Position numbers and translations under genes: made by a program. The notes below the pieces were generated by a model, which did no database searches, was not told the DNA's origin, and worked only from the letters and a program-made list of their open reading frames with translations. Shown one piece after another: positions 5,836 through 37,652 of a DNA stretch of 64,000 nucleotides (its first letter is position 1; each line of letters starts with the position of its first letter). Source of the stretch: Candidatus Omnitrophota bacterium (GTDB taxonomy: Bacteria > Omnitrophota > Gorgyraeia > Gorgyraeales > Gorgyraeaceae); contig DNHS01000051.1 of the NCBI GenBank assembly GCA_003485765.1, positions 71,747 through 135,746 on the forward strand, in the 5' to 3' direction.

Positions 5836-6519
5836 TTATTGTGTAAGAAATTCTTTTGCAATCTGCAAATCAATGACACCTTCGTAGTTCGAAAGAATTT
5901 CCAGATTGCCAAGGCAGTCTCGTGGACAAAAATTAGAGCGTTCTATTAAAAATTCAAATACGTTTTTTTCAATCTTAATTCTTTCAAGCTCAGAAATTCT
6001 GCTTAGTTTACTAATTAATACATCATTTGGTGGCGGCTTAAGAAAATATTTATCACTTCTTGAAAGCAGTCCTCCATCAATTCTGTTCAGGTCAGATGTT
6101 GCAAAAATGAAAGTCAAAAAATTGATGTCTTCTATAGGCTTTAAGAAGCCATCCTGCGCTTTATCAGGCATTCTATGAGCCTCGTCAAAAAATAGAACTC
6201 GCGGCATAAGTACAGAACAACTGAATCCTCTAAATTTACCCAACATTTTATTGATAGTTGCGTAATCGCACTCTGGGGAATTAAATTCCATATATTCAAT
6301 GCACTGCGAAAGCTCACCTTCGCATTCAATGATATCTTTGGCAAATATTCTCGCCAGCGTTGTCTTACCCAAGCCGAAATTTGAAGACAGGATTATCGAA
6401 TGAGGGAAAAATCCTTTCTTGCGATAACCATTCCAAATAATTTTGATATGCTCATTACCCCAAACCTCATCCAGTGTCTTAGGCCTGTATTTCTCTCTGA
6501 AATCTCTTAAGTCTTCCAT
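5836..6519 (-). CDS. Clamp-loader-like AAA+ ATPase (DnaX/RFC small-subunit-like)
   Basis: KYRPKTLDEVWGNEHIKII...SSNFGLGKTTLARIFAKDI matches the KYRP...GxxGxGKTT clamp-loader N-terminus. Walker B is FFDEAHRM. Confidence 0.6.
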   Translation of the reverse strand: MEDLRDFREKYRPKTLDEVWGNEHIKIIWNGYRKKGFFPHSIILSSNFGLGKTTLARIFAKDIIECEGELSQCIEYMEFNSPECDYATINKMLGKFRGFSCSVLMPRVLFFDEAHRMPDKAQDGFLKPIEDINFLTFIFATSDLNRIDGGLLSRSDKYFLKPPPNDVLISKLSRISELERIKIEKNVFEFLIERSNFCPRDCLGNLEILSNYEGVIDLQIAKEFLTQ

Positions 6520-6616
6520 TGAAAAGCTCCTTTCTGGTTAAACTGAAAAACTAAACAATTTATGCACTAACTTCTTGATAAATTTAAGGTTGCTGTTTAT
6601 CATGCTGCCATAAAAA

Positions 6617-7741
6617 CTAAGATAAACTAAGGGTCGAATAGCAGTTAGCTAAGAGATTATCGGCCGAACCAATAGGAAAATCATCAGTGAAAGAGTAGTC
6701 AATTCTATTCTTTAGTCCTCTTACAGGCAGCTCGTTGAGAAAACCTAAGGCAGATAACTTTTTGAAGTATTTAGCCGTAACATTATAATTCTTAAAACGA
6801 CTTCCTTCTGTGGCGACTGCCGTTACTTGGTTACGGGTAAATGTTCTGTTCTGAAATAGCTCCCTCTTATGCTCCCGGAGAAAAACAATGAATTCAACAA
6901 GATCCCTTGTTAACGAAGCATCATCTTCGTCAATATGAACGCTTGTTAGAATCTGCTTTGCCTCGTAAAAATCATCGTGGACTGCCCCTATATACCTTGT
7001 CTCGCCATCTGTTTCTACAGTCCGCTGATTCTGATTAAGGAAAGTAATTGAAGAGATAAGGTTTAGGGTTCTTTCCATTATTCGCGGAGCGTGGTATGGA
7101 CTTGCACCAAGCTTTATTTGCTCTGCAAAGGGAATACCCACCGCTAAATTATGATTTAAATTCTTCTGAAATGTGCGGTGCTTATCTTGCAGACATTTAG
7201 TTGCCCGTTCAGAAATAAATCCTTTAACTGTCCTGAGTAACTTCTGCCTGCAAAGAATACCCTCCCTTGCTTCTTGAGATGTATTAATTCCTGCGACAAA
7301 ACAGCGAGACCTATTCTCAATACCAAATATTTCTGAATTAACCGTGGTTTCAATAAGAGTAGTCGGCCCCTTAAGAACATGTTCCTCATTAGCAGTAGAA
7401 TAGGTAACTTCGCCCTCGCTAATCAACTCTCTTATATACTGAGCGAATTGAGGGTCTTCATATTTCTCGTAGATAAACAAAATCTTATCGCTTAAATCGC
7501 CTTGCCTAACAAGACTGGCAGGCGTGATACGTGAACGGAAAAGAATATCTTCTGAAGGGAACAAATCTAAAACTGTTTTGGCAAGATGTGACTTACCCAG
7601 CCCTGCCGGCCCGGAAACAAGAACAGAGATTTTGTATCGAGTCTTTCTGACCGTAGCAGCCAGATACAGCAGCAAAGCTAAGTTTAAATTATCTCCTACT
7701 CCTAAAATTTTCAAATCTTCCTTTAATTCCTGAATTTTCAC
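6617..7741 (-). CDS. P-loop NTPase with DnaC/IstB-like Walker A (SGPAGLGKSHLAK); putative replication initiation or helicase-loader protein
   Basis: Walker A near residue 43, Walker B ILFIYEK. Neighbours are the polymerase and clamp-loader genes. Confidence 0.4.
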   Translation of the reverse strand: MKIQELKEDLKILGVGDNLNLALLLYLAATVRKTRYKISVLVSGPAGLGKSHLAKTVLDLFPSEDILFRSRITPASLVRQGDLSDKILFIYEKYEDPQFAQYIRELISEGEVTYSTANEEHVLKGPTTLIETTVNSEIFGIENRSRCFVAGINTSQEAREGILCRQKLLRTVKGFISERATKCLQDKHRTFQKNLNHNLAVGIPFAEQIKLGASPYHAPRIMERTLNLISSITFLNQNQRTVETDGETRYIGAVHDDFYEAKQILTSVHIDEDDASLTRDLVEFIVFLREHKRELFQNRTFTRNQVTAVATEGSRFKNYNVTAKYFKKLSALGFLNELPVRGLKNRIDYSFTDDFPIGSADNLLANCYSTLSLS

Positions 7742-26161: not shown

Positions 26162-27034
26162 CTAAAAAATATAGTTCAAGAATTTATATATTAATTTTGC
26201 TGTTAAAAAATCCGGGCTGATATTTCCAGGTATAGGGCACAATTCCACTATATCGAATCCTATAATCTCTTTTTCCTGACTAAGCTTTTTTAACAACGTG
26301 AGTGTCTCATACCAGCCCATGCCTCCGGGTTCAGGCGTGCCTACGCTCGGCATAATGGATGGATCAAGCGCATCCATATCTATAGTAACATAAACTCTAT
26401 TGCTATCCAAAGAATATATGACATCCTCTATCCAGTCTTCATTTTTGATCATGTCCTTCATAAAAAATGTCTTGAGATTATTGTTGGATTTGCCGGATTC
26501 TTCTTTGGACATACTTCTTACTCCTGCCTGGGAAAGGCCTGTAAGTTCTACAATACGCTTCGCAATACATGCGTGGCTATATTTTGAGCCCTGAAAACTA
26601 TCGCGCATGTCTCTGTGCGCGTCCAACTGCAGCACTGAAAAATTCTTAAAAATCTTCTTACATGCTCTTACAGGGCCAAGCGTAATGGAGTGCTCTCCGC
26701 CCAAAACCACGGGAAACTTGCCTGCTTTTAAAATAGATATGACTTCTTTTTCAATTTTATTAATTATATCTTCCGGCTTGGCGCCTATTTGCTTAATTTC
26801 TTTGGCTGTATATATGCCAAATTTATAAATCTCTTTCCCTGTCTCATCATCATATGTCTCCATGTGCTTTGAAGCATCTATTATTGCCTTTGGCCCGGCA
26901 GAAGCTCCGGATTTATAAGAAGTTGTCAAATCATAAGCAACTGGCAATATCGCTATCCTGGACTTATCCCAGGAAAAATATTCATCTTCCAGATCGCAAA
27001 ATTTAAACCGCGCTTTATAATTTTTATTTGGCAT
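26162..27034 (-). CDS. speB: Agmatinase (arginase/ureohydrolase family)
   Basis: Metal-binding motifs GGEHSIT, LDAHRDMR, TIDMDALDPS, GTPEPGG. Confidence 0.8.
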   Translation of the reverse strand: MPNKNYKARFKFCDLEDEYFSWDKSRIAILPVAYDLTTSYKSGASAGPKAIIDASKHMETYDDETGKEIYKFGIYTAKEIKQIGAKPEDIINKIEKEVISILKAGKFPVVLGGEHSITLGPVRACKKIFKNFSVLQLDAHRDMRDSFQGSKYSHACIAKRIVELTGLSQAGVRSMSKEESGKSNNNLKTFFMKDMIKNEDWIEDVIYSLDSNRVYVTIDMDALDPSIMPSVGTPEPGGMGWYETLTLLKKLSQEKEIIGFDIVELCPIPGNISPDFLTAKLIYKFLNYIF

Positions 27035-27353
27035 TTGAGGTTATGAATATATATTCCAATATTCCATTGCCTGTATTTTTTACATTGTGAACTGTACCTG
27101 GCGGTATATATAACACGGAATTATCTTCAAAATCAAATTCTTCTTCACTGTTTATTAGAAGCAGCCCCTTGCCTTTTAATATCACCAGCGCCTCTTCCAG
27201 ATCATTGGTTGAGTGTTCGCCTATCTCTTCTCCTTTTTTCAATATAACATGGCCTGACTTAAGGCCCCGAGTCCCGGAATCTTTATTAAAAAGCCTCTGA
27301 TATTTTGAATTGGATTCTAACTTTACAATTTTTGGTTTTGGAAAATCAGCCAT
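27024..27353 (-). CDS. Cupin-domain protein
   Basis: Small beta-barrel pattern GHVILKKGEEIGEHSTND...VLYIPPGTVHNVKNTG. Confidence 0.55.
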   Translation of the reverse strand: MADFPKPKIVKLESNSKYQRLFNKDSGTRGLKSGHVILKKGEEIGEHSTNDLEEALVILKGKGLLLINSEEEFDFEDNSVLYIPPGTVHNVKNTGNGILEYIFITSNAK

Positions 27354-28440
27354 TTTTAAGGCTTGTCAGAATATCTTTATTCCAGACAAATTTTTTTCTT
27401 TTGCGGGCCCTGTGTAACTTTTCCTGAAAGGCATATGAGTAAACAAGAGGCAGGCTCACGCTCGGCTCAACAAATGCCATTGCGCAGCTTGCGTCATTAT
27501 TGATCTTTCCCCATGAGGTAGCCTCTTTTAATGTGCTGCCGCTTAACCCTCCCCAGTGAGGTACATCTGTTGTAAGCTGAAATGCGTATGAATGCCCGCC
27601 TGTATCTTTATTGAAAATATACCCCATTACAACAGCGTCGTTGATATAATTTTTAGGAACACCCCCTGCGACATAGATAGCGGCTGTCTTTTTGGATTTC
27701 ACTATGGTCTGTGTTATCTCGTAATTATCTTGTATAGAATCAATGTGCACGCCGGACAATTTATTTTCTTTGCATCTATGATAATGGCCGGTAAGGCCTA
27801 TGCCTATTGAGCTGTCATTTAAAGCAGGCGCAAAAATAGGAACCTTGTATTTATAAGCAGTCTTTACAATAGAATCTTCATCGCTCAAGCGAGAGCCAAG
27901 TGTTTCTATAAACTCCCTGGAAGAATAATTTCCCGGCTTCATTGTATCCGCAACGCGGCCTATCCAATTATCAGTATCCCAGAATTTTTCATCATCCACA
28001 TATGTATCATAAATTCTATCAATGTATAATTTATCCAGCACCCTGTCATCTGCGTCAGGGTTTCCTATATAATGCCTGAAACCTCTTGCCTGATATATAT
28101 CCTGATATATTATAGCGCCAGTGGAAACCACTACATCCACCATCTTAAACTTTATCATATTCCTTATAATATCCCTTAGCCCTGCTGCTATTAATGGCCC
28201 TGCAAGGCCTAAATATATAGTAGGCTGCGCCTTATCCTGAAGCATCTTTTTAAAAACATTGGCGCATTTATAGATATTCCGCGCCTGTATGGAACTATTC
28301 TTAAAACTACCTACCAAATCAGATATCTTGGAACCACTCTCTATCTTAACGTGCTCTATAGGCAAAGATAGGATTTTTTTCTTCAATAATGCATCATTTT
28401 TATTAAGTTTTTTTCTGGAAAATTCCTCAACCCGCGCCAT
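27346..28440 (-). CDS. Deoxyhypusine synthase-like protein (DHS/homospermidine-synthase family)
   Basis: GLAGPLIAAGLRDIIRNMIKFKMVDVVVSTGAII resembles the DHS NAD-binding TSNLISSGLRE...VDVLVTTAG. YVAGGVPKNY resembles GGGxPKH. Confidence 0.65.
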   Translation of the reverse strand: MARVEEFSRKKLNKNDALLKKKILSLPIEHVKIESGSKISDLVGSFKNSSIQARNIYKCANVFKKMLQDKAQPTIYLGLAGPLIAAGLRDIIRNMIKFKMVDVVVSTGAIIYQDIYQARGFRHYIGNPDADDRVLDKLYIDRIYDTYVDDEKFWDTDNWIGRVADTMKPGNYSSREFIETLGSRLSDEDSIVKTAYKYKVPIFAPALNDSSIGIGLTGHYHRCKENKLSGVHIDSIQDNYEITQTIVKSKKTAAIYVAGGVPKNYINDAVVMGYIFNKDTGGHSYAFQLTTDVPHWGGLSGSTLKEATSWGKINNDASCAMAFVEPSVSLPLVYSYAFQEKLHRARKRKKFVWNKDILTSLKNG

Positions 28441-29219: not shown

Positions 29220-29301
<82 letters not shown>

Positions 29302-29357
29302 AATTTTTCACAGTTGACAGTTGGCTCTGAAGACTATATACTTATTAATCATCAATG

Positions 29358-29434
29358 GGGGACGTAGTTCAGTTGGATAGAATAATTGATTGTCGATCAA
29401 TAGGTCGCGGGTTCGAATCCCGTCGTCCCCGCCA
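29358..29434 (+). tRNA. tRNA-Asp (anticodon GTC), CCA encoded
   Basis: GGGGACG/CGTCCCC acceptor, anticodon loop TTGTCGA, T loop TTCGAAT. Confidence 0.85.
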
Positions 29435-29471
29435 GTTGAAACACCTTTACATGCGTAGGACTTTGGCTAGA

Positions 29472-29633
29472 TCAGCATATCTGCGCTGGTCCAGTAGCAC
29501 AGCGATTACATGAACCATAAGCTGCAGCTTTTGTAAATTGCTCTTTATCGAATAATGATTCGCTTTGGATAGCAGGGCTTATATAATGTTTTTTAGGCGG
29601 CTTATTATTTTTAACACGCGAACGTTTTTCCAT
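29472..29633 (-). CDS. Candidate RiPP precursor peptide, 53 aa: MEKRSRVKNNKPPKKHYISPAIQSESLFDKEQFTKAAAYGSCNRCATGPAQIC
   Basis: Hand-translated minus-strand ORF. GGAGG lies 4-5 nt upstream of ATG (complement 29631-29633). Overlaps the last 23 nt of the radical SAM gene in another frame. Lys-rich leader-like N-terminus; Cys-rich C-terminus (3 Cys in the last 12 residues). Not in the ORF track (below cut-off). Confidence 0.25.
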   Translation of the reverse strand: MEKRSRVKNNKPPKKHYISPAIQSESLFDKEQFTKAAAYGSCNRCATGPAQIC

Positions 29634-30702
29634 CACATACCTCCCTTTTTATTAAATGTTTCTTTCGCTTACTTTCCTCATGCAGAAAATATGTCAGATC
29701 ACACGCCTCTTTTTCTGGTTCTAAACTTTTGTTTTCAAGAAAACGATTAACAGGACATACCGCGCACTTCGAAATTAACTTACACCTATTGCATATTGGT
29801 ATATCTTTAAATTTTATATTCCGCCATTGTTTTAATACGCTGGAATCTCTCCATATTTTTTCAAAAGACTCTTCGCATATATTGCCTGCGCTATATGGAG
29901 CTAAGAGACAGGGGTATAACCGGCCATATGGGTCTATTGAAAATGTACTATGTCCTCCCTTGCATACATTGCGTTCAAGCAAATCTTCAAGCGGTTCAGT
30001 ATCGTTCTGAGCGAAATAAGATAAGTCCTCTTCATAAATTTTTGCAAGATGCCTAGAGAGAGCTTTTGTGGATATATCATTATATCTATTTTGCTCGCTC
30101 CCATTGCGCATCGGGGCTGTTATATGATTAAATTGGCAGCGCACCCCAAGATCGCCAGCAAGTTTTTTTATATCAGCATATAAATTAAAATTATCCTTTG
30201 AAAGAGATGTTTTTAACCTAACTCTAACTTTATACTTAGTAAGAAAACGCACTGCATTTATTGTGCGCTCAAAAGAACCTTTTCTCCTGGTAATTTTCTC
30301 ATGCGTTGGACTATTGGGCCCATATATGCTAATACAAACTTCTGCTATATTGTAGCTGCTTATTTGCTTGGCTTTTTTATCATCTATAAGAGTACCGTTT
30401 GTAAATATTGTTATAGCAAATTTCTTATGATTAGCGTGCTCGAGTATATCAAATATATCTTCTCGCATAAAGACCTCGCCACCGGTAAAAATTATAAAAA
30501 ACGTTCCGTGAAAGGCAAGGACATCTAAAATATCTTTTATCTGCTTCGTAGACAGAGGCTGTGTAGTAAAATCATTATTATAGCAATGATAACACCTAAG
30601 ATTGCATTTAAATGTCAGCTCAAAAATGCACCTAAAAGGGATATCCTCTTTATTGCATCTTTTCAGAAAACGTTCATATAAAGAATTGGTATCCATTATC
30701 AT
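29611..30702 (-). CDS. Radical SAM protein with C-terminal SPASM-type auxiliary cluster domain (peptide-modifying maturase type)
   Basis: CxxxCxxC at FKCNLRCYHCYN. C-terminal Cys-rich region CKGG...CLLAPY...CNRCKLISKCAVCPV is typical of SPASM/twitch domains. 363 aa. Confidence 0.8.
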   Translation of the reverse strand: MIMDTNSLYERFLKRCNKEDIPFRCIFELTFKCNLRCYHCYNNDFTTQPLSTKQIKDILDVLAFHGTFFIIFTGGEVFMREDIFDILEHANHKKFAITIFTNGTLIDDKKAKQISSYNIAEVCISIYGPNSPTHEKITRRKGSFERTINAVRFLTKYKVRVRLKTSLSKDNFNLYADIKKLAGDLGVRCQFNHITAPMRNGSEQNRYNDISTKALSRHLAKIYEEDLSYFAQNDTEPLEDLLERNVCKGGHSTFSIDPYGRLYPCLLAPYSAGNICEESFEKIWRDSSVLKQWRNIKFKDIPICNRCKLISKCAVCPVNRFLENKSLEPEKEACDLTYFLHEESKRKKHLIKREVCDGKTFAC

Positions 30703-30703
30703 T

Positions 30704-31045
30704 CTATTTCGTAAGCAAAAGTTTCGCCCTTTTCATTTTCTTTATCAAGTTTAAAATATCGGCTTTGGCTTTTCCCCGCTTTATATCATATTCTTTGCAT
30801 ATATATGTTAAAATTTTCTCCAGTGAAACCCAACCTACAGATAACTCCCAGACTTTAGTACCTATTTCATTCAGGCAATGGATTTTATTTTCAAGAGAAG
30901 AGTAAATAATAGTCTCTTTTCCAAAAATACGGAAGGCAATATGTGGATTACGCTTTATAAAAGACATATCTTGCTTCTTTCTAATAAAGGCGCCTTTTTT
31001 GAGAACTCCAGGATATGCGTTGGTACTATGTTGATCATCTTGCAA
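30704..31045 (-). CDS. PqqD-family peptide chaperone (RiPP recognition element); true start may be Met at ~30967
   Basis: FRIFGKETIIYSSLENKIHCLNEIGTKVWELSV matches the PqqD pattern (..vlld..sg.yy.LN.tg..iW.ll). It overlaps the upstream gene by 91 nt if the longest ORF is used. Confidence 0.55.
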   Translation of the reverse strand: MQDDQHSTNAYPGVLKKGAFIRKKQDMSFIKRNPHIAFRIFGKETIIYSSLENKIHCLNEIGTKVWELSVGWVSLEKILTYICKEYDIKRGKAKADILNLIKKMKRAKLLLTK

Positions 31046-31788
31046 CAGATATCAAATATTTTGTTGGTATCCGGATATACGCCAACCCCATATACGTTCC
31101 GCATTAATATCTTAAGCGCATTACATATAGATAGCGGAACTACTTTATTATAAAGGCCTTTTCTGAGGAAGAAAATTCTTCTGAGAGGGGTTCTTTTTCT
31201 CTTATTTAAACCATCCCAGTGAACCGAACTAACAGGAGGATTATGGATGTAGAAACGCTCACCTTCATATTTTATAAATGTTAATTCATCATGTAAAACA
31301 GTGTAATCATTTGGAATGAGTTTCACAATCGTTGATTTCCCGGATCCTGACGGACCTGCAAATATAACTCCTCTATTTTTATAACAAACGCTCGAACAAT
31401 GTATTGCAATGCTATTATATGATGGGGAAATAAATCTGTAAATCTCCATTAAGGAAAATAGAATAAAATTCGTCATTCTTCTCCCGTTACAAGTTGCAAG
31501 AATATATCCTTTCTTAGTCCTTGCGTCAAAAACACACTTGCCATTTAAATTTGATATCTTAACCAAAAACTTGGAATAAGAAGACGTTTTTATATTGCGC
31601 TGGATATAAACGTTCTTTTTTTTGGAAGGCTTGCTCTGCTTAATAAAAATAGATATATGTTTTTCCTTATTAAAATTATCAAATTTAAACCCTGCTAAAC
31701 GTTCTTCTAAACATTGGAATAACTTATGGCTTTTACATGTCAGTGTGCAAGGAATCTGAGCTATTTTTAAACTTAGATTAAATTCCAC
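30955..31788 (-). CDS. HPr-kinase-related protein (C-terminal HprK-like P-loop kinase domain)
   Basis: GVIFAGPSGSGKST Walker A followed by an HprK C-domain-like region. Starts at GTG 31788. The pairing with a PqqD-like gene recalls the NCBI/TIGRFAMs 'HPr-rel-A system' gene pair. Confidence 0.55.
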   Translation of the reverse strand: MEFNLSLKIAQIPCTLTCKSHKLFQCLEERLAGFKFDNFNKEKHISIFIKQSKPSKKKNVYIQRNIKTSSYSKFLVKISNLNGKCVFDARTKKGYILATCNGRRMTNFILFSLMEIYRFISPSYNSIAIHCSSVCYKNRGVIFAGPSGSGKSTIVKLIPNDYTVLHDELTFIKYEGERFYIHNPPVSSVHWDGLNKRKRTPLRRIFFLRKGLYNKVVPLSICNALKILMRNVYGVGVYPDTNKIFDICCKMINIVPTHILEFSKKAPLLERSKICLL

Positions 31789-31818: not shown

Positions 31819-32280
31819 CTACATGCCGGATAATTTGCCTATCGCCATCAAGGTGAATACCATTGTAAATATTGCGACTGTCTCTATGATACCTAGGACC
31901 ATCAGATAGTTTCCAAAGCCTTTTCCTGTCTCACCCATTGCATCGCTGGCTGAAGCAGCTGCTAATCCCTGATACCACGCTGAAAAACCTATTGCAGCTC
32001 CTGATAAGGCTCCCAGTATCCCAAGCGCCGCTGTATTTTGTACAGTTTTACTGGCTTCCAATAAAGCGTTCATAACTATCATCCCATAAATTGTCTGGGT
32101 AAGAGGCGCTCCTACAAACGCCAGGAATATAAACGGCGCGGTTTTATTCTGGGCGAAACATTTCTTCCATGCTCCTATCGCAGCCATACCTGCTACTCCT
32201 GCGCCAGCGCCTGAGCCGATAGCTGAAAAGGCAAGCGCCGCGCCTGCTATCCCGATATCTTTAAAATTTGACATATCCAT
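31819..32280 (-). CDS. ntpK: V-type ATP synthase subunit K (c-ring proteolipid, 4-TM duplicated form)
   Basis: 153 aa, four hydrophobic helices, conserved Glu in helix 4 (GIIETVAIF). Helix 2 has PLTQTIY; helix 3 has AWYQG. Confidence 0.8.
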   Translation of the reverse strand: MDMSNFKDIGIAGAALAFSAIGSGAGAGVAGMAAIGAWKKCFAQNKTAPFIFLAFVGAPLTQTIYGMIVMNALLEASKTVQNTAALGILGALSGAAIGFSAWYQGLAAASASDAMGETGKGFGNYLMVLGIIETVAIFTMVFTLMAIGKLSGM

Positions 32281-32293
32281 AAATTCTCCTCCC

Positions 32294-34030
32294 CTATTTT
32301 AACCTAAAAGGATTATACTCTGTACCTGACCATTCCATATCCAAATGCCCTGAAAATTCAAGCACATTCAGTCTCACCCCATGAACCAGTATAGACAATA
32401 TACCCATCGCGAGATTCAGGGTATGTCCCGCAAAAAGCACAAAAGCGCTAAACAAAATGCTTAAAAAACTGGCTGTTCCTATGCTACCTGCTATCTGGTT
32501 AAATGCGTTTGCTATTGCCACCCCTGCGAGCCCTACCGCGAATAATCTTATATAGGAGACTATATCCGCAAAACTATTCACGAGTTTCAATAAAAAATCT
32601 CCAAGTCCAGCTCCGATACCGGCAAATATGTTTTTCCCGGGACTTGTAAATAAAATAATAAGGGTTGAGCCTCCTATAAAAATCCATTTCCCAATACTTG
32701 GAAATTCAAAATTCAATATGAGGGCTTTTGCCAGAAAATACGCGCACCATAAAACCGCTATCCACCCTATATCGCTCAACGCCTTTAAAGACGGCCATTT
32801 TCTTAAAATTTTCCAGATATGAGCGAGGCTCAGCTGTACTGCGCCTATTAAAAAACATAAGGCCTGGACATTTGTGTTGTTGGAGAGATATGGGACAAGA
32901 GGTTTTATCCATATGTGCGGCCCGAAAAATACGCCTGTCATCAGGCCCCATGCAATAGCGCAGCTACTCAGGACATATGTTAAGAAAAAAATTGATTTAT
33001 CTTTTATAGCCTTAAACTTTTTCTGCGCTATTAAAGCTATTAGGAAATACGTAAGCCCATAGCCCGCATCGCCTATAAGCATGCCGAAAAATATAGAAAA
33101 GAATATTAAAAAATACGGGCTTATATCCAGCTCTCTGTATCCCGGAATAGTGTTTATAATGCTGAATATGGGTTTTATTACTTCCACCCATTTAGGATTT
33201 TTTATAAGGGTCGGGGGAAAGTCATTTTCGTCCGGTTCACTTATTAATACGCCCCATTTTTCTTTTGAGGCTGAGCTTTCTATAATGCCTAATTTATTCT
33301 CCGGACAATACCCTTTTAAATAAGAAAGTTTTTCAAAATTCCCTGCGCCCTCCCGTATTTCATTAAATTCTATTATAACGCCGAGTTTTTTCTCATATTT
33401 TATCAATTCGTTTTTATGCGCGCTGATTTCTAGAAATCTTTTGTTTATCCTGACCAGGTTTTCTTCGCAGTCTTTCTTTTTTAAAAACATCTCTTCCAGG
33501 CTTACTTCAGGCAGAGCCAAGGTCTCAAAAGGCAGTTTAATATCCTCTCTGAATATTGCTGCGCAGTAAATAATTTTGCCTTTTTCAAAAATCTTTTCTA
33601 TTATCACGCCTTTAGGAGCATCTTTGATTTCCCTGGTACTAAGTTTGCAGAGCCTTACCCGTATATTTTTAGTTTCCAGGCCCTCAATTGCCTCAGGGTC
33701 AAAATCCCCCCATTCATTCCATATTTCTATATCGCGTTTCAGGATTTGCAATTCTTCTACCAGTGTTTCTTTTTCATCCAGAAGCCCGGCTATCTCATCT
33801 ATAAGGACATCTTCTTTGTTATCCGAAATAGCCTGATTTTTTATATCATGTAAAACCGCGATAGCTTTTAAAATGTGGTTTAATTTTTCCTTAAGCGCCA
33901 CGATGTTTTCCCCTAAAGGCGCGTTCTCATGCTCCACATGCAAAAGCCCCAGCCTTCTCACAGATTCAAGCGTGGAATCAATATCCTTTGACTGGGTTAT
34001 TAAAATTATCTTTTTCATTTTGACTATCAT
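32294..34030 (-). CDS. ntpI: V-type ATP synthase subunit I (membrane a-subunit)
   Basis: 578 aa. Soluble coiled-coil N-terminal half, then a C-terminal polytopic membrane half with a conserved Arg-containing helix (LNVLEFSGHLDM). Operon position. Confidence 0.8.
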   Translation of the reverse strand: MIVKMKKIILITQSKDIDSTLESVRRLGLLHVEHENAPLGENIVALKEKLNHILKAIAVLHDIKNQAISDNKEDVLIDEIAGLLDEKETLVEELQILKRDIEIWNEWGDFDPEAIEGLETKNIRVRLCKLSTREIKDAPKGVIIEKIFEKGKIIYCAAIFREDIKLPFETLALPEVSLEEMFLKKKDCEENLVRINKRFLEISAHKNELIKYEKKLGVIIEFNEIREGAGNFEKLSYLKGYCPENKLGIIESSASKEKWGVLISEPDENDFPPTLIKNPKWVEVIKPIFSIINTIPGYRELDISPYFLIFFSIFFGMLIGDAGYGLTYFLIALIAQKKFKAIKDKSIFFLTYVLSSCAIAWGLMTGVFFGPHIWIKPLVPYLSNNTNVQALCFLIGAVQLSLAHIWKILRKWPSLKALSDIGWIAVLWCAYFLAKALILNFEFPSIGKWIFIGGSTLIILFTSPGKNIFAGIGAGLGDFLLKLVNSFADIVSYIRLFAVGLAGVAIANAFNQIAGSIGTASFLSILFSAFVLFAGHTLNLAMGILSILVHGVRLNVLEFSGHLDMEWSGTEYNPFRLK

Positions 34031-34644
34031 ATTAAAACAGCCTCTAAGCTCATTCTTTTTATCTTATTCTTCGCCATCTTGGAACGTCCTACCGCGCCGG
34101 CCTGCTGGTCGCCTAGATAAATTCTTATCCGTCTTATATTATCAGCGCACTCCGGGATCTTTACTTTTTCAAAAAGATTTACCCGCTGGTTTGTAACCCT
34201 GAGCTCCTCGCTCAGTATACTCAATTGTCCATTCAGTATCTTTTTCTCTTCCAGAAAAGTTACAAACTTCCTTAACTCGATAATCGCGGTATCAACCCAT
34301 AGCGGCGTTAAAAATAAATCGTATTCAGCCTCTTCGAATTCCATTTTTTCAAATACCTGTATATCCACGCCCGCTATATTAAAACTCGAGGTAGCAATAT
34401 TTTTAGGCTTTATCCAACCGGCTACATAATCTCCGGGTTCCTCCAGAAGATTTGCCCACTCGCTTATCTCGTTCTCCAGATTATCCAGTTCCTGATTTTT
34501 CAGGTTTAATTTTTCGCGAACCCGCTGTATCTCAAGCTGCATCTGCTGTTTCTTTAGCTGCAATATAGGTAGATAGCGCTCGAATCTTTTCAGGCCGTCG
34601 CGTTGTCTTTTCAGCTCGCCCTTTGTAAATTTGATTTTCCCCAT
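34027..34644 (-). CDS. ntpD: V-type ATP synthase subunit D
   Basis: MGKIKFTKGELKRQRDGLKRFERYLPILQLKKQQ is a typical subunit D N-terminus. 205 aa. Confidence 0.8.
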   Translation of the reverse strand: MGKIKFTKGELKRQRDGLKRFERYLPILQLKKQQMQLEIQRVREKLNLKNQELDNLENEISEWANLLEEPGDYVAGWIKPKNIATSSFNIAGVDIQVFEKMEFEEAEYDLFLTPLWVDTAIIELRKFVTFLEEKKILNGQLSILSEELRVTNQRVNLFEKVKIPECADNIRRIRIYLGDQQAGAVGRSKMAKNKIKRMSLEAVLI

Positions 34645-34647
34645 GTA

Positions 34648-35943
34648 TTATTTCTTCGGCCAGAATTCGCTTGTGAGTTCAGTCTTTATGCTTATTTCTG
34701 TCAGTTCGAAATTCTCCGCCAGGATCTGCCATCCAAGGTCCAGGGCTTTTTCCAATGGTATATCCACGGAAATATTCATCATTCTTTCTTCAAACGCCCT
34801 GCCATATTTAAGGAGCTTCTTGTCCCATTCGCTCATATGAAAACCCATCGACTGCTTTTCAAGGGCTTCTCTGTAATCGCTAAATAGCTGAATCATCCTG
34901 TCCATTATGGCGCGATGGTCTTTCCTGGTTTTGCCGTTAACCAGCTGCTTCAAGCGGCTTAATGAACCGAACGGCTCGATTGATTTATTTCTCAGATAAA
35001 ACTGGCCTTCTGTAATATATCCAGTATTATCGGGAACAGGGTGGGTCACGTCATCTCCAGGCATCGTGGTGACAGCCAGTATTGTTATGGATCCTGCTGT
35101 ATCAAAATCAACTGCCTTTTCATAGCGCTTTGCCAGCTGGCTGTATAAATCTCCGGGATATCCTCTATTGGAAGGGATCTGCTCCATGGTAATCGATATT
35201 TCTTTCAGGGCGTCACAGAAATTCGTCATGTCGCTCAAAAGTACCAGGACGCGCTTACCTTGCAGCGCAAACTGCTCAGCTACAGCCAAGCTCAGATCAG
35301 GCACGAGCAGGCACTCTACGGTAGGGTCCTGGGCTGTGTGCACGAAAAATATCGCCCTGGATAGAGACCCGTTTTTCTCAAGAGTATCTCTAAAGAAAAG
35401 ATAATCGTCGTACTTAAGCCCCATGCCTCCCAATATTATAATATCCACTTCCGCCTGCATCGCTATGCGTGCTAATAGCTCATTGTATGGCTCTCCTGGC
35501 ACTGAGAATATCGGAAGTTTCTGAGACTCAACAAGAGAATTAAATATATCTATCATAGGAATGCCGGTGCGTATCATTTTCCTGGGAATAATCCTTTTCG
35601 CCGGGTTCACTGAAGGCCCGCCTATCTCAACCATATTTTCCTCTAAGATTGGCCCATTATCTCTGGGAAGGCCTGCGCCGTTAAACAAACGGCCTAGAAG
35701 ATTTTCCGTAAAAGAAACTCTCATAGGATGCCCCAGGAACCTTATCTTGTCTTCTGTTGAGATGCCGCGGCTTCCTGCGTATATCTGCAGATATACCCTT
35801 TCTCCGTCTATCCTTATTACCTGCGCCAGGGATTTTCCTGCTTTTGAAGATATCTCAGCTAGGTCACTGTAACCCACGTCTCTCGCCTCAACAGTAATTA
35901 CGTTGCCTGCTATCTGAATTATACGATTATAGATTTTTTGCAT
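34648..35943 (-). CDS. ntpB: V-type ATP synthase subunit B (regulatory)
   Basis: 431 aa. Beta-barrel N-terminus, nucleotide-binding core without a canonical P-loop Lys/Thr, [15 protein letters not shown]. Confidence 0.85.
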
Positions 35944-37652
35944 TTTTCTTTTACCTGGTTTTCTTTTTTATTGAAATCTTCCGTCCGCCATTCGGACGAA
36001 TTCCATTCAATAAATACCTGCCTAAGGCTTTGAAAGAACTTCCTGGCAGTATTTTTATCTTCAAAACTAAACTCGGATTTTATAATCTCATATAAGACAT
36101 GAAATACATATTTCTGCCTTTCTTCAATCGTAGCTGCGTCCACTTCGTCAAACGCATTCTGCTGGAGATACACGTCGTCTATAAACTCGCCTTTAAGATA
36201 AACTATGAAATCCTGTAAAGACGTGCCTTCTTCTCCTACTACTTTCATCATCTGTTTTACTTCATAGCTTCTCTTCAAAACAGCCTGGGCCGCCTTTATC
36301 TCTTTATCTTCTATAAAACTGCTATATTTACTCCAGCTTTCAAGAGGATCTATGGCAGGGTATCTTCTTGCGTCAGACCTTTCTCGCGAAAGCCCGTGGA
36401 ACGCACCTACTACTTTTAATGTGGCCTGCGTAACAGGCTCCTCAAAATTTCCACCTGCGGGGCTTACTGTGCCGCCTATTGTAACAGAACCTAAACTCCC
36501 GCCATGCAATCTCACCAGGCCTGCTCGTTCATAAAATGAGGCTATTCTGTTTTCAAGATATGCGGGAAACGCCTCTTCTCCGGGAATTTCTTCCAATCTT
36601 CCGGACATCTCTCTCATTGCCTGCGCCCATCTGGAAGTAGAATCAGCCAAAAGTAATACATTTAACCCCATCTGGCGGTAATACTCCGCGATAGTGACAG
36701 CAGTGTAAACGCTTGATTCCCTTGCGCTCACCGGCATCGAGCTGGTATTACATATAATAACAGTCCTCTCTATAAGGCTTTTCTTTGTCCGGGGATCTAC
36801 AAGATGCGGGAATTCCCTTAATGTCTCCACGACTTCTCCAGCTCTTTCTCCGCACGCCGCTATAATAACTATGTCAATCTCCGCGTGCTTACTGATAAGC
36901 TGCTGCAAAACTGTTTTTCCTGAGCCAAAAGGGCCTGGTATGCAATAAGTGCCGCCAAGCGCAACAGGCATAAGTGTATCTATAATCCTTATTTTTGTTG
37001 TCAATGGCCTGGATGGTTTTAACTTTTCAGCAAAACACGTAATAGGCACTTTTACAGGCCAGACTTGAGACATGCTGCAGGGGTGAATATTCCCATGTTC
37101 ATCCTTTAACTCTGCTATTACATGTTGAATATTATACTTACCTTTAATCGCTATCTTTTCTACTTCTACCGCGCCTTTTAAAACAAACGGCGCCATGATC
37201 CAGTGTTCAAAAATACCTTCATGCGTAAAGCCTAATTTTTCGCCTGGTTTTAATTTTTGACCAATTTTGGCAACCGGCGTAAATTCCCATTCCTTTTTAT
37301 TATCCAGGGCTTCTAAGTACAAACCTCTTTTTAAGAAAAATCCTGACTTTTCCGCCAATTGCGGCAAAGGATTTTGAAGACCATCGAATATCTGGCCTAA
37401 TAGCCCAGGCCCAAGCTCTACCGAGAGGAGCTCTCCTGTAAATTCTACCTTTTCCCCCAGCTTCAAGCCCTTTGTGTCTTCATAAACCTGTAGTTCAGCC
37501 TTGTTACCTGTAACGCGTATTACCTCTGATTTAAGCCTCTCATCGTTATGCAATATGAAAGCAACTTCATTCTGCATAACATGGTCATGAAACTCAACCG
37601 TTGCCATGTTCCCGTTTAGTCCCGTAAGAACACCTATTCTGGATGCGCTCAT
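35919..37652 (-). CDS. ntpA: V-type ATP synthase subunit A (catalytic)
   Basis: P-loop [12 protein letters not shown]; 577 aa with the non-homologous insert typical of A subunits. Confidence 0.9.

What the first reader, a model, noticed from the sequence alone, without database searches (positions are those of the whole stretch)
29472..31788. RiPP-like cluster: radical SAM/SPASM maturase + PqqD-like chaperone + HPr-kinase-related protein, with an unannotated Cys-rich precursor candidate
Three co-directional, tightly packed genes encode an HprK-related P-loop kinase, a PqqD-family RiPP recognition element and an rSAM enzyme with a SPASM-type C-terminal Cys cluster. That is the enzyme set of a post-translationally crosslinked peptide pathway. 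A 53-aa ORF with a GGAGG RBS overlaps the 3' end of the rSAM gene in another frame. It has a Lys-rich leader-like N-terminus and ends ...AAAYGSCNRCATGPAQIC, which fits a thioether (sacti/ranthipeptide-type) precursor. Pairing of an HprK-related kinase with a PqqD protein is a recognised but functionally uncharacterised association. Its combination here with an rSAM/SPASM enzyme and a possible phosphorylated product looks unusual.
Basis: partly seen in the sequence, partly recalled or inferred. Interest (0 to 1): 0.6.

Follow-up and report, generated by a model that had tools for sequence, protein, structure and literature searches.

The report
Radical-SAM peptide cassette with its precursor
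A compact four-gene cluster in an uncultivated Omnitrophota bacterium encodes a small cysteine-rich peptide plus a peptide-binding chaperone, a radical-SAM enzyme and a kinase-like ATPase that most likely turn it into a cross-linked, possibly phosphorylated natural product of a type nobody has characterised.

Summary
On the minus strand lie four tightly packed genes. They encode a ScmC-type P-loop protein of the PEPCK/HPr-kinase fold (30955-31788), a discrete PqqD-type recognition element (30704-30967), a radical SAM/SPASM enzyme (29611-30702) and a 53-aa ORF (29472-29633) with a GGGAGG ribosome-binding site.

PqqD scores above Pfam's threshold. The small ORF is conserved at protein level in eight other loci whose rSAM is only 36-56% identical (where that gene is intact), each with its own Shine-Dalgarno site. 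The shared features are a Lys-rich N-terminus, a [Y/W]xxPx[LIV] leader motif and a Cys-containing core. In the close subfamily the core is Y-x(1-2)-C-x-x-C...C-COOH.

[quoted passage not shown] That is the gene set of the linear polyphosphorylated peptides described in 2026, which lack an rSAM.

I conclude that this is a RiPP cassette and that its precursor family is in neither Pfam nor NCBIfam. The chemistry (Cys thioethers plus phosphorylation) is inferred, not shown. I rate it a new variant of a known kind, of moderate interest.

The parts
30955..31788 (-). ScmC-type P-loop phosphotransferase-like protein (277 aa, GTG start; PEPCK/HPr-kinase fold)
   Evidence: ORF. NCBIfam hits ScmC 5.4e-8, HprK_rel_A 1e-4 and HprK_rel_B 1.5e-4, all below cut-off. 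Precomputed Pfam PF27840 ScmC on the identical P0003 and on the neighbours in L002, L004, L005, L006, L012 and L013. AF2 pLDDT 89.7. Foldseek top hits are ATP-PEPCK, E 2e-10. The profile aligns the H130...GxSGxGKST block to the PEPCK '[17 protein letters not shown]' block, E 3e-7. H130 and T153 are invariant, and F143, S147, G150, K151, D167 and P185 at least 90% conserved, in 149 relatives.
30704..30967 (-). Discrete PqqD-family RiPP recognition element (87 aa from ATG 30967; the open frame extends to a TTG at 31045)
   Evidence: PF05402 scores 37.8 bits against a gathering score of 23.4. The best NCBIfam hit is the lasso-type PqqD chaperone, 1.8e-8, then WgkC, 4.9e-6. Weak PDB sequence hits to the lasso RREs TbiB1 and 9x90_B. 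Start and overlaps read. Homologues are 89-110 aa.
29611..30702 (-). Radical SAM/SPASM peptide maturase (363 aa), with no fused RRE
   Evidence: PF04055 82.3 bits and PF13186 43.8 bits. No NCBIfam family reaches its cut-off; the best hits are AhbD 144, MftC 132 and WgkB 130 bits. C33/C37/C40 plus C247, C265, C304, C307, C313, C316 and C334 are invariant in the 8 closest homologues and invariant or at least 90% conserved in 60. AF2 pLDDT 94.2. The nearest solved structures are SkfB and CteB, then SuiB, anSME and PqqE.
29472..29633 (-). Precursor peptide, 53 aa: MEKRSRVKNNKPPKKHYISPAIQSESLFDKEQFTKAAAYGSCNRCATGPAQIC. It has a Lys-rich N-terminus, the leader motif Y17-x-x-P20-x-I22 and a core with C42-x-x-C45 and a C-terminal C53.
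   Evidence: Sequence. Identical and 87%-identical database peptides. Homologous small ORFs in L002/L009, L004, L005, L008, L006, L011 and L013. Alignment. Leave-one-out HMM E 2.8e-7. dN/dS 0.44 for L002 against L004, with a synonymous TGT to TGC change in a Cys codon. No Pfam or NCBIfam family.
29640..29645 (-). Shine-Dalgarno sequence GGGAGG, 6 nt upstream of the peptide's ATG and inside the rSAM coding sequence
   Evidence: Read. A GGAGG-type site (GAGG in L013) lies about 5-8 nt upstream of the peptide start in all 9 loci examined.

Best explanation
This is a self-contained four-gene RiPP cassette, probably horizontally acquired, that makes a short modified peptide.

SHOWN. The gene set and its tight coupling are shown. 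So is a conserved precursor family with an N-terminal Lys-rich leader carrying [Y/W]xxPx[LIV] and a C-terminal Cys-containing core.

INFERRED mechanism, step by step.
(1) The discrete PqqD RRE binds the YxxPx[LIV] leader motif, as lasso, PQQ, StsC-type sactipeptide and LPP RREs do with the same class of motif, and presents the core to the enzymes (p about 0.8).
(2) The rSAM/SPASM enzyme abstracts a hydrogen atom from the core and forms intramolecular cross-links involving the cysteines. These are most likely sacti- or ranthi-type thioethers (p about 0.45 for thioether, about 0.7 for some Cys- or Tyr-centred cross-link). Cysteines are the only core residues kept across all nine peptides.
(3) The ScmC-type P-loop protein keeps the His...GxSGxGKST...Asp catalytic core of PEPCK and HPr kinase. 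It uses ATP to phosphorylate a hydroxyl of the precursor (p about 0.45). Candidates are the Ser/Thr found at +1 or +2 after the first core cysteine motif (CxxC, or the lone first Cys in L011 and L013) in all nine peptides, the conserved Tyr, or, in L006 and L011, a C-terminal Ser.
[quoted passage not shown] The window lacks both, so here they must be supplied in trans, or the product stays in the cell. An A-x-A-like site (KAAA|YGSC) would leave a 15-residue core, YGSCNRCATGPAQIC (low confidence).
For: Gene identities.

Operon coupling: overlaps of 13 and 23 nt and a gap of 1 nt.

The ScmC-PqqD-rSAM triad recurs wherever upstream sequence is available. It is found in L002, L004, L005, L006, L007, L008, L012 and L013, with the ScmC C-terminus visible at the cut end of L011.

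A precursor was found in 8 other loci, downstream of the rSAM, or between PqqD and rSAM in L013. Each has its own Shine-Dalgarno site.

Leader and core features are tabulated.

The leave-one-out HMM is specific.

The W/Y/LxxP/L/I recognition sequence is documented as a widely distributed RRE-binding motif (PMC12710340; PMC13381572).

HprK-like kinases that act with a discrete RRE polyphosphorylate a Ser of the precursor in LPP (PMC13381572).

Relatives carry archaeal-type SpI: TIGR02228 at 48-86 bits in L002, L007, L011 and L012. They also carry NTP_transf_5 (L002, L014) and an MsbA-like ABC pump (L002).

The nearest solved rSAM structures, by both sequence and fold, are the thioether-forming RiPP maturases SkfB and CteB.

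Exactly seven conserved SPASM cysteines. From memory, this resembles CteB, where one auxiliary-cluster site is left for a substrate Cys.
Against: No chemistry was or could be tested.

The rSAM scores below the cut-off of every curated family. It is about as similar to non-thioether enzymes (AhbD, MftC, WgkB) and structurally to SuiB, anSME and PqqE.

The P-loop protein is only remotely related to characterised kinases. It is below every NCBIfam cut-off, and no HprK structure appears among the top fold hits.

The Cys pattern is not uniform outside the close subfamily: two Cys in L011, and C...CC in L013.

Three related loci (L007, L012, L014) showed no member of this peptide family in the DNA fetched.

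The window has no peptidase, exporter or immunity gene nearby.

The family is small: only nine distinct peptides, all from metagenomes.
Confidence: 0.7

Rival explanations
1. Same cassette and precursor, but the rSAM/SPASM enzyme installs something other than a thioether. Candidates are a C-C or C-O cross-link at the conserved Tyr next to CxxC (PqqE-, SuiB- or WgkB-like), epimerisation (EpeE-like), or oxidation or decarboxylation of the C-terminal Cys (MftC-like action on a C-terminal residue).
For: MftC and WgkB are among the best NCBIfam hits, at 132 and 130 bits. SuiB, anSME, PqqE and EpeE are close structural neighbours. Tyr lies 1-2 residues before CxxC in all six close-subfamily peptides, and Cys is the very last residue in all six.
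Against: Tyr is absent from the cores of L006 and L011, and the terminal residue there is Ser. Cys is the only core residue present in all nine peptides. The two nearest solved enzymes, SkfB and CteB, make thioethers.
Confidence: 0.25
2. The product is an intracellular peptide-derived cofactor or metal ligand, analogous to PQQ (PqqA/D/E) or mycofactocin (MftA/B/C), rather than a secreted natural product.
For: The window's cassette is the minimal triad of precursor, PqqD and rSAM plus one extra enzyme. It has no peptidase, exporter or immunity gene, and housekeeping genes flank it. MftC is the second-best family hit. The CxxC...C pattern could bind metal.
Against: Relatives add a signal-peptidase-type leader peptidase and an MsbA-like exporter. 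That points to a processed, exported peptide. No cofactor-dependent dehydrogenase or other cofactor-pathway gene is linked in any locus. The patchy distribution and changing genomic context suggest an accessory trait.
Confidence: 0.12
3. The ScmC-type protein does not phosphorylate the peptide. It may be an ATP-driven scaffold or chaperone for the RRE-rSAM complex, or it may act on a small molecule or on another protein.
For: Similarity to proven kinases is remote, and no curated cut-off is reached. The best fold matches are PEP carboxykinases, which act on small molecules. The phospho-acceptor position is not strictly conserved: the Ser/Thr lies at +1 or +2, and the C-terminal Ser occurs only in L006 and L011.
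Against: The catalytic-core residues (His, the Walker A Lys and Thr, and Asp) are kept in 149 relatives. The protein always sits directly beside the RRE gene. The one experimentally studied arrangement of a kinase-like protein, a discrete RRE and SpI does phosphorylate the precursor (PMC13381572).
Confidence: 0.25
4. The 53-aa ORF is a chance open frame, and the real substrate is encoded elsewhere.
For: It overlaps the rSAM gene. It has no family assignment. NCBI is not among the sources listed for the identical peptide P0001.
Against: It is conserved in position, frame, motif and ribosome-binding site across loci whose rSAM is only 36-56% identical. The alternative frames carry stop codons. 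The leave-one-out HMM gives E 2.8e-7 against 1.5 for the next best segment. Homology between the window and L001 runs through the ORF and ends about 45 nt after its stop.
Confidence: 0.03

Closest known systems
Linear polyphosphorylated peptide (LPP) clusters of Bacillota: LppA/K/B/S/D/N (Popov et al., Nat Commun 2026, PMC13381572)
   Same: Both have a discrete RRE next to an HprK-superfamily P-loop protein and a precursor whose leader carries YxxPx[V/L/I]. In relatives of the window's cassette, the same accessory set is present: archaeal-type signal peptidase I, an NTP_transf_5 nucleotidyltransferase and an MsbA-like ABC exporter.
   Different: LPP clusters have no radical SAM enzyme. Their precursors are 35-200 aa with variable C-termini rather than short Cys-rich cores. 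They are reported as restricted to Bacillota. The window's own cassette lacks SpI, the NTP-transferase and the exporter. The longer LPP leader consensus (...VLxHQxIxFETxxS) is not kept, although L006 has a similar 'IFET'.
SynChlorMet (Scm) cassette: NCBIfam TIGR04248 ScmD, TIGR04249 ScmC, TIGR04250 ScmE, TIGR04251 ScmF; Pfam PF27840 ScmC
   Same: Both combine an ScmC-type protein, a PqqD homologue and a PqqE-like rSAM/SPASM enzyme. ScmC is the best-scoring family for the window's P-loop protein and for 119 of 149 relatives. PF27840 is precomputed on it.
   Different: Every score is far below the equivalog cut-offs: 32.5 against 125 bits, and 97 and 87 against 400 bits. There is one rSAM gene, not two. 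The PqqD does not hit ScmD at E<=0.01. No paper on the cassette was found. From memory, and unverified here, its curators reported no identified precursor.
Thioether-forming RiPP maturases SkfB (sporulation killing factor) and CteB (SCIFF/ranthipeptide); sactipeptide systems such as AlbA and StsB/StsC
   Same: These are the nearest solved structures by sequence (SkfB, E 6e-18) and by fold (SkfB 3.5e-16, CteB 1.5e-15). The substrate has a Cys-rich core. StsC is a discrete RRE that recognises a related motif (PMC12710340).
   Different: SkfB, CteB and AlbA carry an N-terminal fused RRE, whereas here the RRE is a separate protein. Identity is only 17-23%. Family scores are far below cut-offs: AlbA 107 against 850, StsB 106 against 625, PapB 72 against 340. 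None of those systems includes a kinase-like protein.
PQQ (PqqA/D/E) and mycofactocin (MftA/B/C) triads
   Same: Each is a minimal architecture of a short precursor, a discrete PqqD-family chaperone and an rSAM/SPASM enzyme without a fused RRE. MftC is the second-best family hit, at 132 bits.
   Different: Scores are below cut-off: MftC 132 against 265, PqqE 79 against 381. The precursor has neither the Glu...Tyr pair of PqqA nor the C-terminal Val-Tyr of MftA (both from established knowledge). No downstream cofactor-pathway genes are present, and a kinase-like gene is added.
Paeninodin-type phosphorylated lasso peptide clusters
   Same: Both pair a discrete PqqD RRE with an HprK-like kinase, plus NTP-transferase and ABC exporter in relatives, and a [Y/W]xxP leader. 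The window's PqqD scores best against the Bacillota lasso PqqD model (PMC13381572).
   Different: The cassette has no lasso cyclase (Asn-synthetase-like C protein) and no B2 cysteine protease, and its flanks are housekeeping genes. An rSAM enzyme is present instead.

Membership tests
RRE-dependent radical SAM/SPASM RiPP cluster (generic kind) | Radical SAM domain with CxxxCxxC | tested here: met
   PF04055 scores 82.3 bits against a gathering score of 29.5. C33, C37 and C40 are invariant.
RRE-dependent radical SAM/SPASM RiPP cluster (generic kind) | SPASM auxiliary-cluster domain (C-x9-15-G-x4-C ... CxxCx5Cx2-3C ... C) | tested here: met
   PF13186 scores 43.8 bits against 21.5. C247-x12-G260-x4-C265, C304-x2-C307-x5-C313-x2-C316 and C334 are invariant in the 8 closest homologues and invariant or at least 90% conserved in 60.
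RRE-dependent radical SAM/SPASM RiPP cluster (generic kind) | PqqD-type RiPP recognition element | tested here: met
   PF05402 scores 37.8 bits against 23.4.
RRE-dependent radical SAM/SPASM RiPP cluster (generic kind) | Adjacent short precursor with a conserved leader and a modifiable core | tested here: met
   Nine distinct homologous peptides share [Y/W]xxPx[LIV] and Cys cores. Leave-one-out HMM E 2.8e-7.
RRE-dependent radical SAM/SPASM RiPP cluster (generic kind) | Post-translational modification of the peptide actually occurs | not testable with these tools
   This needs expression and mass spectrometry.
SynChlorMet cassette (NCBIfam equivalogs TIGR04248-04251) | ScmC equivalog score of at least 125 bits | tested here: not met
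   32.5 bits. The best among 149 relatives is E 4.5e-15.
SynChlorMet cassette (NCBIfam equivalogs TIGR04248-04251) | Two PqqE-like rSAM/SPASM proteins, ScmE and ScmF (at least 400 bits each) | tested here: not met
   There is one rSAM gene only. It scores 97.2 bits against ScmE and 87.2 bits against ScmF.
SynChlorMet cassette (NCBIfam equivalogs TIGR04248-04251) | ScmD PqqD homologue (at least 100 bits) | tested here: not met
   The window's PqqD gives no ScmD hit at E<=0.01. The second PqqD of L002 scores 28.4 bits.
Pfam PF27840 ScmC (broad family) | Match to the Pfam model | tested here: met
   The hit is precomputed on P0003, which is 100% identical to the window protein, and on the neighbours in six related loci. 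The local Pfam copy lacks this model, so the score itself was not seen.
LPP (linear polyphosphorylated peptide) clusters, PMC13381572 | Archaeal-type signal peptidase I (LppS) as leader peptidase | tested here: not met
   It is absent from the 64-kb window by tblastn. It is present in relatives L002, L007, L011 and L012 (TIGR02228, 48-86 bits).
LPP (linear polyphosphorylated peptide) clusters, PMC13381572 | HprK-like kinase next to a discrete RRE | tested here: inconclusive
   A P-loop protein of the HprK/PEPCK superfamily sits next to PqqD. Orthology to LppK could not be tested because no LppK sequence was available.
LPP (linear polyphosphorylated peptide) clusters, PMC13381572 | NTP-transferase (LppN) and MsbA-like exporter (LppD) | tested here: not met
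   Neither was found in the window. They are present in L002 and L014.
LPP (linear polyphosphorylated peptide) clusters, PMC13381572 | Leader consensus YxxPxVLxHQxIxFETxxS | tested here: inconclusive
   The YxxPx[LIV] part is present and the remainder is not.
Sactipeptide / ranthipeptide | Cys sulfur to carbon thioether installed by the rSAM enzyme | not testable with these tools
   The only evidence is indirect: the Cys-rich core and SkfB and CteB as nearest solved enzymes.
Sactipeptide / ranthipeptide | Match to a curated maturase family (AlbA, StsB, SkfB, PapB) | tested here: not met
   Scores are 107 against 850, 106 against 625, 73 against 300 and 72 against 340 bits.
Lasso peptide | Macrolactam synthetase (C) and B2 leader protease | tested here: not met
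   The cassette holds only four genes, and its flanks are the V/A-ATPase operon and tRNA/DUF520 genes.

The most novel reading that the evidence does not exclude
This cassette is the minimal form of an uncharacterised RiPP class. In it a discrete RRE delivers one short precursor to both a radical SAM/SPASM enzyme and a PEPCK/HprK-fold ScmC-type kinase. The product would be a roughly 15-residue peptide (core Y-x-C-x-x-C...C-COOH) that is both thioether-bridged and phosphorylated, or in which phosphorylation primes a further reaction. If so, the conserved [Y/W]xxP-leader, Cys-core peptides found here would be a first candidate substrate family for ScmC-type cassettes. They would also link the 2026 LPP pathway with sacti/ranthipeptide chemistry in candidate phyla (Omnitrophota, Elusimicrobiota).
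Probability: 0.3. Interest if true: 0.75.

Novelty: new variant of a known kind. Interest (0 to 1): 0.55.

Why it matters
ScmC/HprK-related proteins paired with PqqD are a large family: 3616 representative clusters at E<=1e-3. No paper on the ScmC-type cassette was found in the library searched, and curated databases hold no peptide family for it.

This work supplies a concrete, conserved candidate substrate and a minimal four-gene unit of 2.3 kb that can be synthesised and expressed. That makes the roles of the ScmC-type ATPase and of this rSAM branch directly testable.

It also shows that the gene module just described for LPPs in Bacillota (kinase-like protein, RRE, archaeal-type signal peptidase, NTP-transferase, exporter) exists in candidate phyla. 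There it has been combined with radical chemistry. A similar module, without PqqD or rSAM in the stretch examined, occurs in Bacteroidota.

If the product is a doubly modified peptide, it would add a new scaffold to RiPP chemistry from organisms that cannot be cultured.

Tried and rejected
- tRNA artefact. I suspected the Cys-rich tail might be a tRNA gene read on the opposite strand, because neighbouring frames translate to tRNA-like strings. This is rejected: tRNA-Asp ends at 29434 and the ORF at 29472.
- Promoter and terminator scan of 29.0-32.4 kb. Counts were at the shuffle level and there were no terminators, so it is uninformative.
- Flanking direct or inverted repeats as insertion scars. 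None were convincing.
- GC dip over the cassette (0.32-0.35 against 0.37-0.45). It is mild, and other parts of the window are equally low, so it is only weak support for foreign origin.
- Accessory genes in the window. I looked for SpI, NTP_transf_5, ABC exporter, PMT/TPR and BNR homologues by tblastn. Only the PqqD matched.
- Locus scans. The close-subfamily alignment A2 found only 1 genome locus and 2 metagenome loci, so the subfamily is rare.
- Word-index protein searches for the ScmC protein and the peptide. These returned essentially only the query itself.
- L007, L012 and L014. No member of the peptide family was found in the fetched DNA.
- L015 and L016. They were too short or unrelated in context.
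- dN/dS for L005 against L008. The ungapped comparison was invalid because of indels.
- Literature. There were no papers for 'SynChlorMet', for 'ScmC' with 'radical SAM', or for 'HPr kinase' with 'SPASM'. Haft & Basu 2011 is not held.
- Sequence-only PDB search with ScmC profiles. It is dominated by generic P-loop hits, and only the PEPCK alignment extends beyond Walker A.
- The PDB hits of PqqD to designed beta-propellers (Scone, Cake). I judged them spurious because no stretch passed on its own.

Full report
WHAT IS THERE

On the minus strand of 29472-31788 there are four co-directional genes. First comes a 277-aa P-loop protein (30955-31788, GTG start). Its N-terminus MEFNL matches the MEF/MKF starts of its homologues. 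Next is a PqqD-family protein. Its open frame runs 30704-31045, but the likely ATG is at 30967, which gives 87 aa, close to the 89-110 aa of the homologues. Third is a 363-aa radical SAM/SPASM enzyme (29611-30702). Last is a small ORF whose ATG is at 29633 and whose stop is at 29472, giving 53 aa.

Gene junctions are an overlap of 13 nt, a gap of 1 nt and an overlap of 23 nt. This is the usual sign of a translationally coupled operon. GGGAGG lies 6 nt upstream of the peptide's ATG.

The cassette sits between a V/A-type ATPase operon (subunits K, I, D, B and A from 31819 upward) and a convergent tRNA-Asp/tRNA-Val pair. Beyond the tRNAs come DUF520, a deoxyhypusine-synthase homologue, a cupin and an agmatinase. 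Identical proteins in the public collection are labelled as from a 'Candidatus Omnitrophica bacterium' MAG.

CHECKING THE THREE ENZYME ASSIGNMENTS

PqqD and rSAM. PqqD passes Pfam's curated threshold, at 37.8 against 23.4 bits. Its best NCBIfam match is the Bacillota lasso-type PqqD chaperone. The rSAM enzyme passes both Radical_SAM and SPASM. It has CxxxCxxC plus seven SPASM cysteines, invariant among the eight closest homologues and invariant or at least 90% conserved among 60. It lacks a fused N-terminal RRE, because the rSAM motif starts at residue 33. It reaches no curated NCBIfam cut-off. The best scores are AhbD 144, MftC 132, WgkB 130, AlbA 107, StsB 106, ScmE 97 and PqqE 79 bits, so it belongs to an unnamed SPASM branch. 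By sequence, the nearest solved structure is the thioether-forming SkfB, at E 6e-18. A confident model (pLDDT 94.2) matches SkfB and CteB best, followed by SuiB, BlsE, anSME and PqqE.

The P-loop protein. It is only weakly similar to curated models: ScmC 5.4e-8, HprK_rel_A 1e-4 and HprK_rel_B 1.5e-4, all below cut-off. The identical database protein carries the newer Pfam family PF27840 'ScmC'. An exhaustive HMMER search found 3616 representative clusters at E<=1e-3 but only 3 at E<=1e-30. So the superfamily is large and this subfamily is rare. Of 149 relatives, 119 hit ScmC, 101 HprK_rel_A, 70 HprK_rel_B, 18 PEP carboxykinase and 11 HPr(Ser) kinase/phosphatase. The AlphaFold model (pLDDT 89.7) matches ATP-dependent PEP carboxykinases over both domains, at E 2e-10. 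A profile aligns its 'lllHASs...kgylFlGpSGaGKSTia' block to the PEPCK block '[27 protein letters not shown]', at E 3e-7. H130 and T153 are invariant, and F143, S147, G150, K151, D167 and P185 nearly so. From memory, this His...Walker-A...Asp arrangement and its spacing correspond to the catalytic cores of PEPCK (His232, Lys254, Asp269) and of HPr kinase. It is therefore a P-loop phosphotransferase-like protein of the PEPCK/HprK superfamily. 'HprK-related' is acceptable, but 'ScmC-type' is more exact.

IS THE SMALL ORF A REAL GENE?

I first tested the trivial explanation that its Cys-rich tail is a tRNA read backwards. It is not: the tRNAs end at 29434. I then fetched loci encoding homologues of the rSAM and ScmC proteins.

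A small ORF with the same design is present in eight other loci:
- L001: about 97% nucleotide identity to the window.
- L002/L003/L009: groundwater, rSAM 56% identical.
- L004: rSAM 54% identical.
- L005: rSAM 46% identical.
- L008: Omnitrophica CG1_02_40_15, ScmC 39% identical.
- L006: an Elusimicrobia MAG, rSAM 37% identical.
- L011: rSAM 39% identical.
- L013: rSAM 36% identical; here the ORF lies between PqqD and rSAM.

Every one has a GGAGG-type Shine-Dalgarno site (GAGG in L013) about 5-8 nt before its ATG.

All nine distinct peptides share a Lys/Arg-rich N-terminus and a [Y/W]xxPx[LIV] motif, mostly followed by a Glu at about +8. The first Cys lies 18-29 residues after the motif, and each peptide has at least two Cys. 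In the six closest peptides the core reads Y-x(1-2)-C-x-x-C-[AST]..., and Cys is the last residue. A Ser or Thr lies at +1 or +2 after the first core cysteine motif (CxxC, or the lone first Cys in L011 and L013) in all nine.

Several lines argue for a translated, selected gene:
- L002 against L004 gives dN/dS 0.44 in this frame, with a synonymous TGT to TGC change in a Cys codon. The other two frames carry stop codons.
- Window against L001 differs at 7 residues, all in the first 29. The alternative GTG start is lost in L001 while the ATG and the Shine-Dalgarno site remain.
- An HMM built from the seven non-window peptides picks out only the window's ORF among 2553 six-frame segments, at E 2.8e-7; the next best is 1.5.
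- Homology between the window and L001 continues through the ORF and stops about 45 nt after its stop codon. The ORF therefore travels with the cassette.

The peptide family matches nothing in Pfam or NCBIfam. NCBI is not among the sources listed for the identical database peptide.

WHAT THE RELATIVES ADD

The ScmC-PqqD-rSAM triad recurs in every related locus with enough upstream sequence. L011 shows the ScmC C-terminus at its cut end.

Several relatives carry extra genes. [quoted passage not shown] An NTP_transf_5 (PF14907) gene is present in L002 and L014. An MsbA-like ABC transporter and a second PqqD are present in L002.

[quoted passage not shown] It is exactly the core of the 'linear polyphosphorylated peptide' (LPP) clusters described in 2026 (PMC13381572). 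In those clusters the kinase LppK puts several phosphates on Ser3 of the core. The SpI-like LppS removes the leader in an RRE-dependent way. The leader carries YxxPxVL....

That paper mentions no radical SAM enzyme and regards LPPs and paeninodins as restricted to Bacillota. A second paper documents W/Y/LxxP/L/I as a recognition sequence shared by RREs of lasso, PQQ and StsC-type sactipeptide pathways (PMC12710340).

The window's cassette contains none of the accessory genes. It is the stripped-down version: precursor, RRE, rSAM and ScmC-type protein.

MECHANISM

What is shown is the gene set, its coupling and the conserved precursor family with an RRE-type leader motif. The rest is inferred.
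(1) PqqD binds Y17-x-x-P20-x-I22 and presents the core.
(2) The rSAM/SPASM enzyme cross-links the core through its cysteines, most likely as thioethers. Four points support this. Cys is the only residue common to all cores. The nearest solved enzymes, SkfB and CteB, form thioethers. The segment after CxxC is rich in small residues, as sactionine acceptors often are. Only seven SPASM cysteines are conserved, which from memory resembles CteB, where a substrate Cys completes an auxiliary cluster.
(3) The ScmC-type protein phosphorylates a hydroxyl, by analogy with LppK and the paeninodin kinases. Candidates are the Ser/Thr next to the first core cysteine motif, the conserved Tyr, or the C-terminal Ser in L006 and L011.
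(4) An SpI-type peptidase removes the leader in relatives. A-x-A-like sites precede the core in most peptides (window AAA|Y, L002 TAS|Y, L011 ALA|C). In the window this would leave YGSCNRCATGPAQIC. This last step is weak inference.

The evidence equally allows a Tyr-centred C-C cross-link or a modification of the C-terminal Cys. It also allows a non-kinase role for ScmC, or an intracellular cofactor-like product. These are listed as rivals with the tests that would separate them.

COMPARISON WITH KNOWN SYSTEMS

The cassette works like an RRE-guided rSAM RiPP pathway (PQQ, mycofactocin or sactipeptide type) joined to the kinase-RRE module of LPPs and phosphorylated lasso peptides. It is not a member of several nearby families:
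- The curated SynChlorMet cassette: scores are far below cut-offs, there is one rSAM gene rather than two, and there is no ScmD hit.
- Any curated maturase family.
- The LPP family as defined: the window has no SpI, NTP-transferase or exporter, an rSAM is present, and the phylum differs.
- Lasso clusters: there is no cyclase and no B2 protease.

It does belong to the broad Pfam ScmC family. No paper in the held library mentions the SynChlorMet cassette, or the combination of an HPr-kinase-like protein with a SPASM enzyme.

VERDICT

It is a new variant of a known kind. The building blocks are all familiar. The combination and the precursor family are uncatalogued and uncharacterised, and they are confined so far to metagenomes from candidate phyla. 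Interest is moderate, at 0.55. The main value is a minimal 2.3-kb unit that can be synthesised. It makes the function of ScmC-type proteins and of this rSAM branch testable.

The limits are clear. No chemistry was tested. Only nine distinct peptides support the family. Three related loci have no detected precursor.

Noticed in passing
window 29224-29434 (+) and 29430-29480: tRNA-Val(tac) and tRNA-Asp(gtc) converge on the cassette. Homology with the 97%-identical locus L001 ends about 45 nt after the peptide's stop, and L001 continues into unrelated DNA. GC over the cassette is 0.32-0.35 against 0.37-0.45 beside it. Together these suggest a small acquired islet next to tRNA genes, but no flanking repeats were found.
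   Followed up: partly
window 31819-37652 (-) and upstream: A V/A-type ATPase operon (subunits K, I, D, B, A) ends 30 nt before the ScmC start. The cassette may be co-transcribed with it, since no terminator-like site lies between them.
   Followed up: partly
L008 5827-7223 (Omnitrophica CG1_02_40_15, MNVP01000077.1): The rSAM gene is split into two frames (6101-6430 and 6303-7223) and PqqD is cut to 48 aa, while the 57-aa peptide with four Cys is intact. This is either decay of the cluster or an assembly error. A histidine kinase and a LuxR-type response regulator follow directly.
   Followed up: partly
L007 1-4931 and 7060-9453: Two tyrosine-recombinase genes lie just upstream of ScmC. The signal-peptidase-I domain is fused to a 797-aa Kelch/FlgD_ig protein, followed by a PorV-like gene. 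No peptide of the family was found, so the substrate there may be a larger protein.
   Followed up: partly
L002 1-3457 and 7468-9065: The fullest version of the cluster has an MsbA-like ABC transporter, a GDSL lipase, NTP_transf_5, a second PqqD and SpI. A DDE_3 transposase interrupts an ABC ATPase gene after SpI, and IS-like remnants lie in the 1.4-kb gap before ScmC.
   Followed up: partly
L006 3865-5751: In the Elusimicrobia locus a 628-aa PMT_2/TPR protein (glycosyltransferase-like) sits between PqqD and rSAM. The peptide there has 'KIFET', resembling the LPP leader end 'IxFET', and ends in Ser rather than Cys.
   Followed up: no
L013 2624-3388 and 3586-7498: After the rSAM gene comes a 254-aa ORF with weak similarity to the N-terminal part of alanine-tRNA ligase (E 6e-5). 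It is followed by a gene for a 2818-aa protein with AAA_28, Radical_SAM, NAGPA and APH domains. L013 and L004 come from the same assembly (GCA_041643015.1), so two paralogous cassettes co-occur in that sample.
   Followed up: no
L017 (Phocaeicola massiliensis OY725995.1, 67.3-71.4 kb of the record): An unannotated record of a cultured Bacteroidales strain carries NTP_transf_5 (142.7 bits), an ABC transporter, a ScmC-like protein (23% identity, tblastn 1e-4) and an ORF with a signal-peptidase-like 'GSSMFPLL' motif. These are followed by 6-bladed beta-propeller proteins. No rSAM or PqqD was seen in the stretch examined. It is an LPP-like module outside Bacillota.
   Followed up: partly
window 29611-29650 / L001 780-830: Between the window and L001, substitutions are concentrated in the roughly 90 nt that encode the rSAM C-terminal tail and the peptide's N-terminal leader: about 10 differences, against 0 in the core-encoding 75 nt and about 2-3% elsewhere in the rSAM gene.
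   Followed up: no
window 26162-28440 (-): A deoxyhypusine-synthase homologue (297.9 bits), a cupin and an arginase-family (agmatinase-like) gene sit together. This is a polyamine-related trio unrelated to the finding.
   Followed up: no
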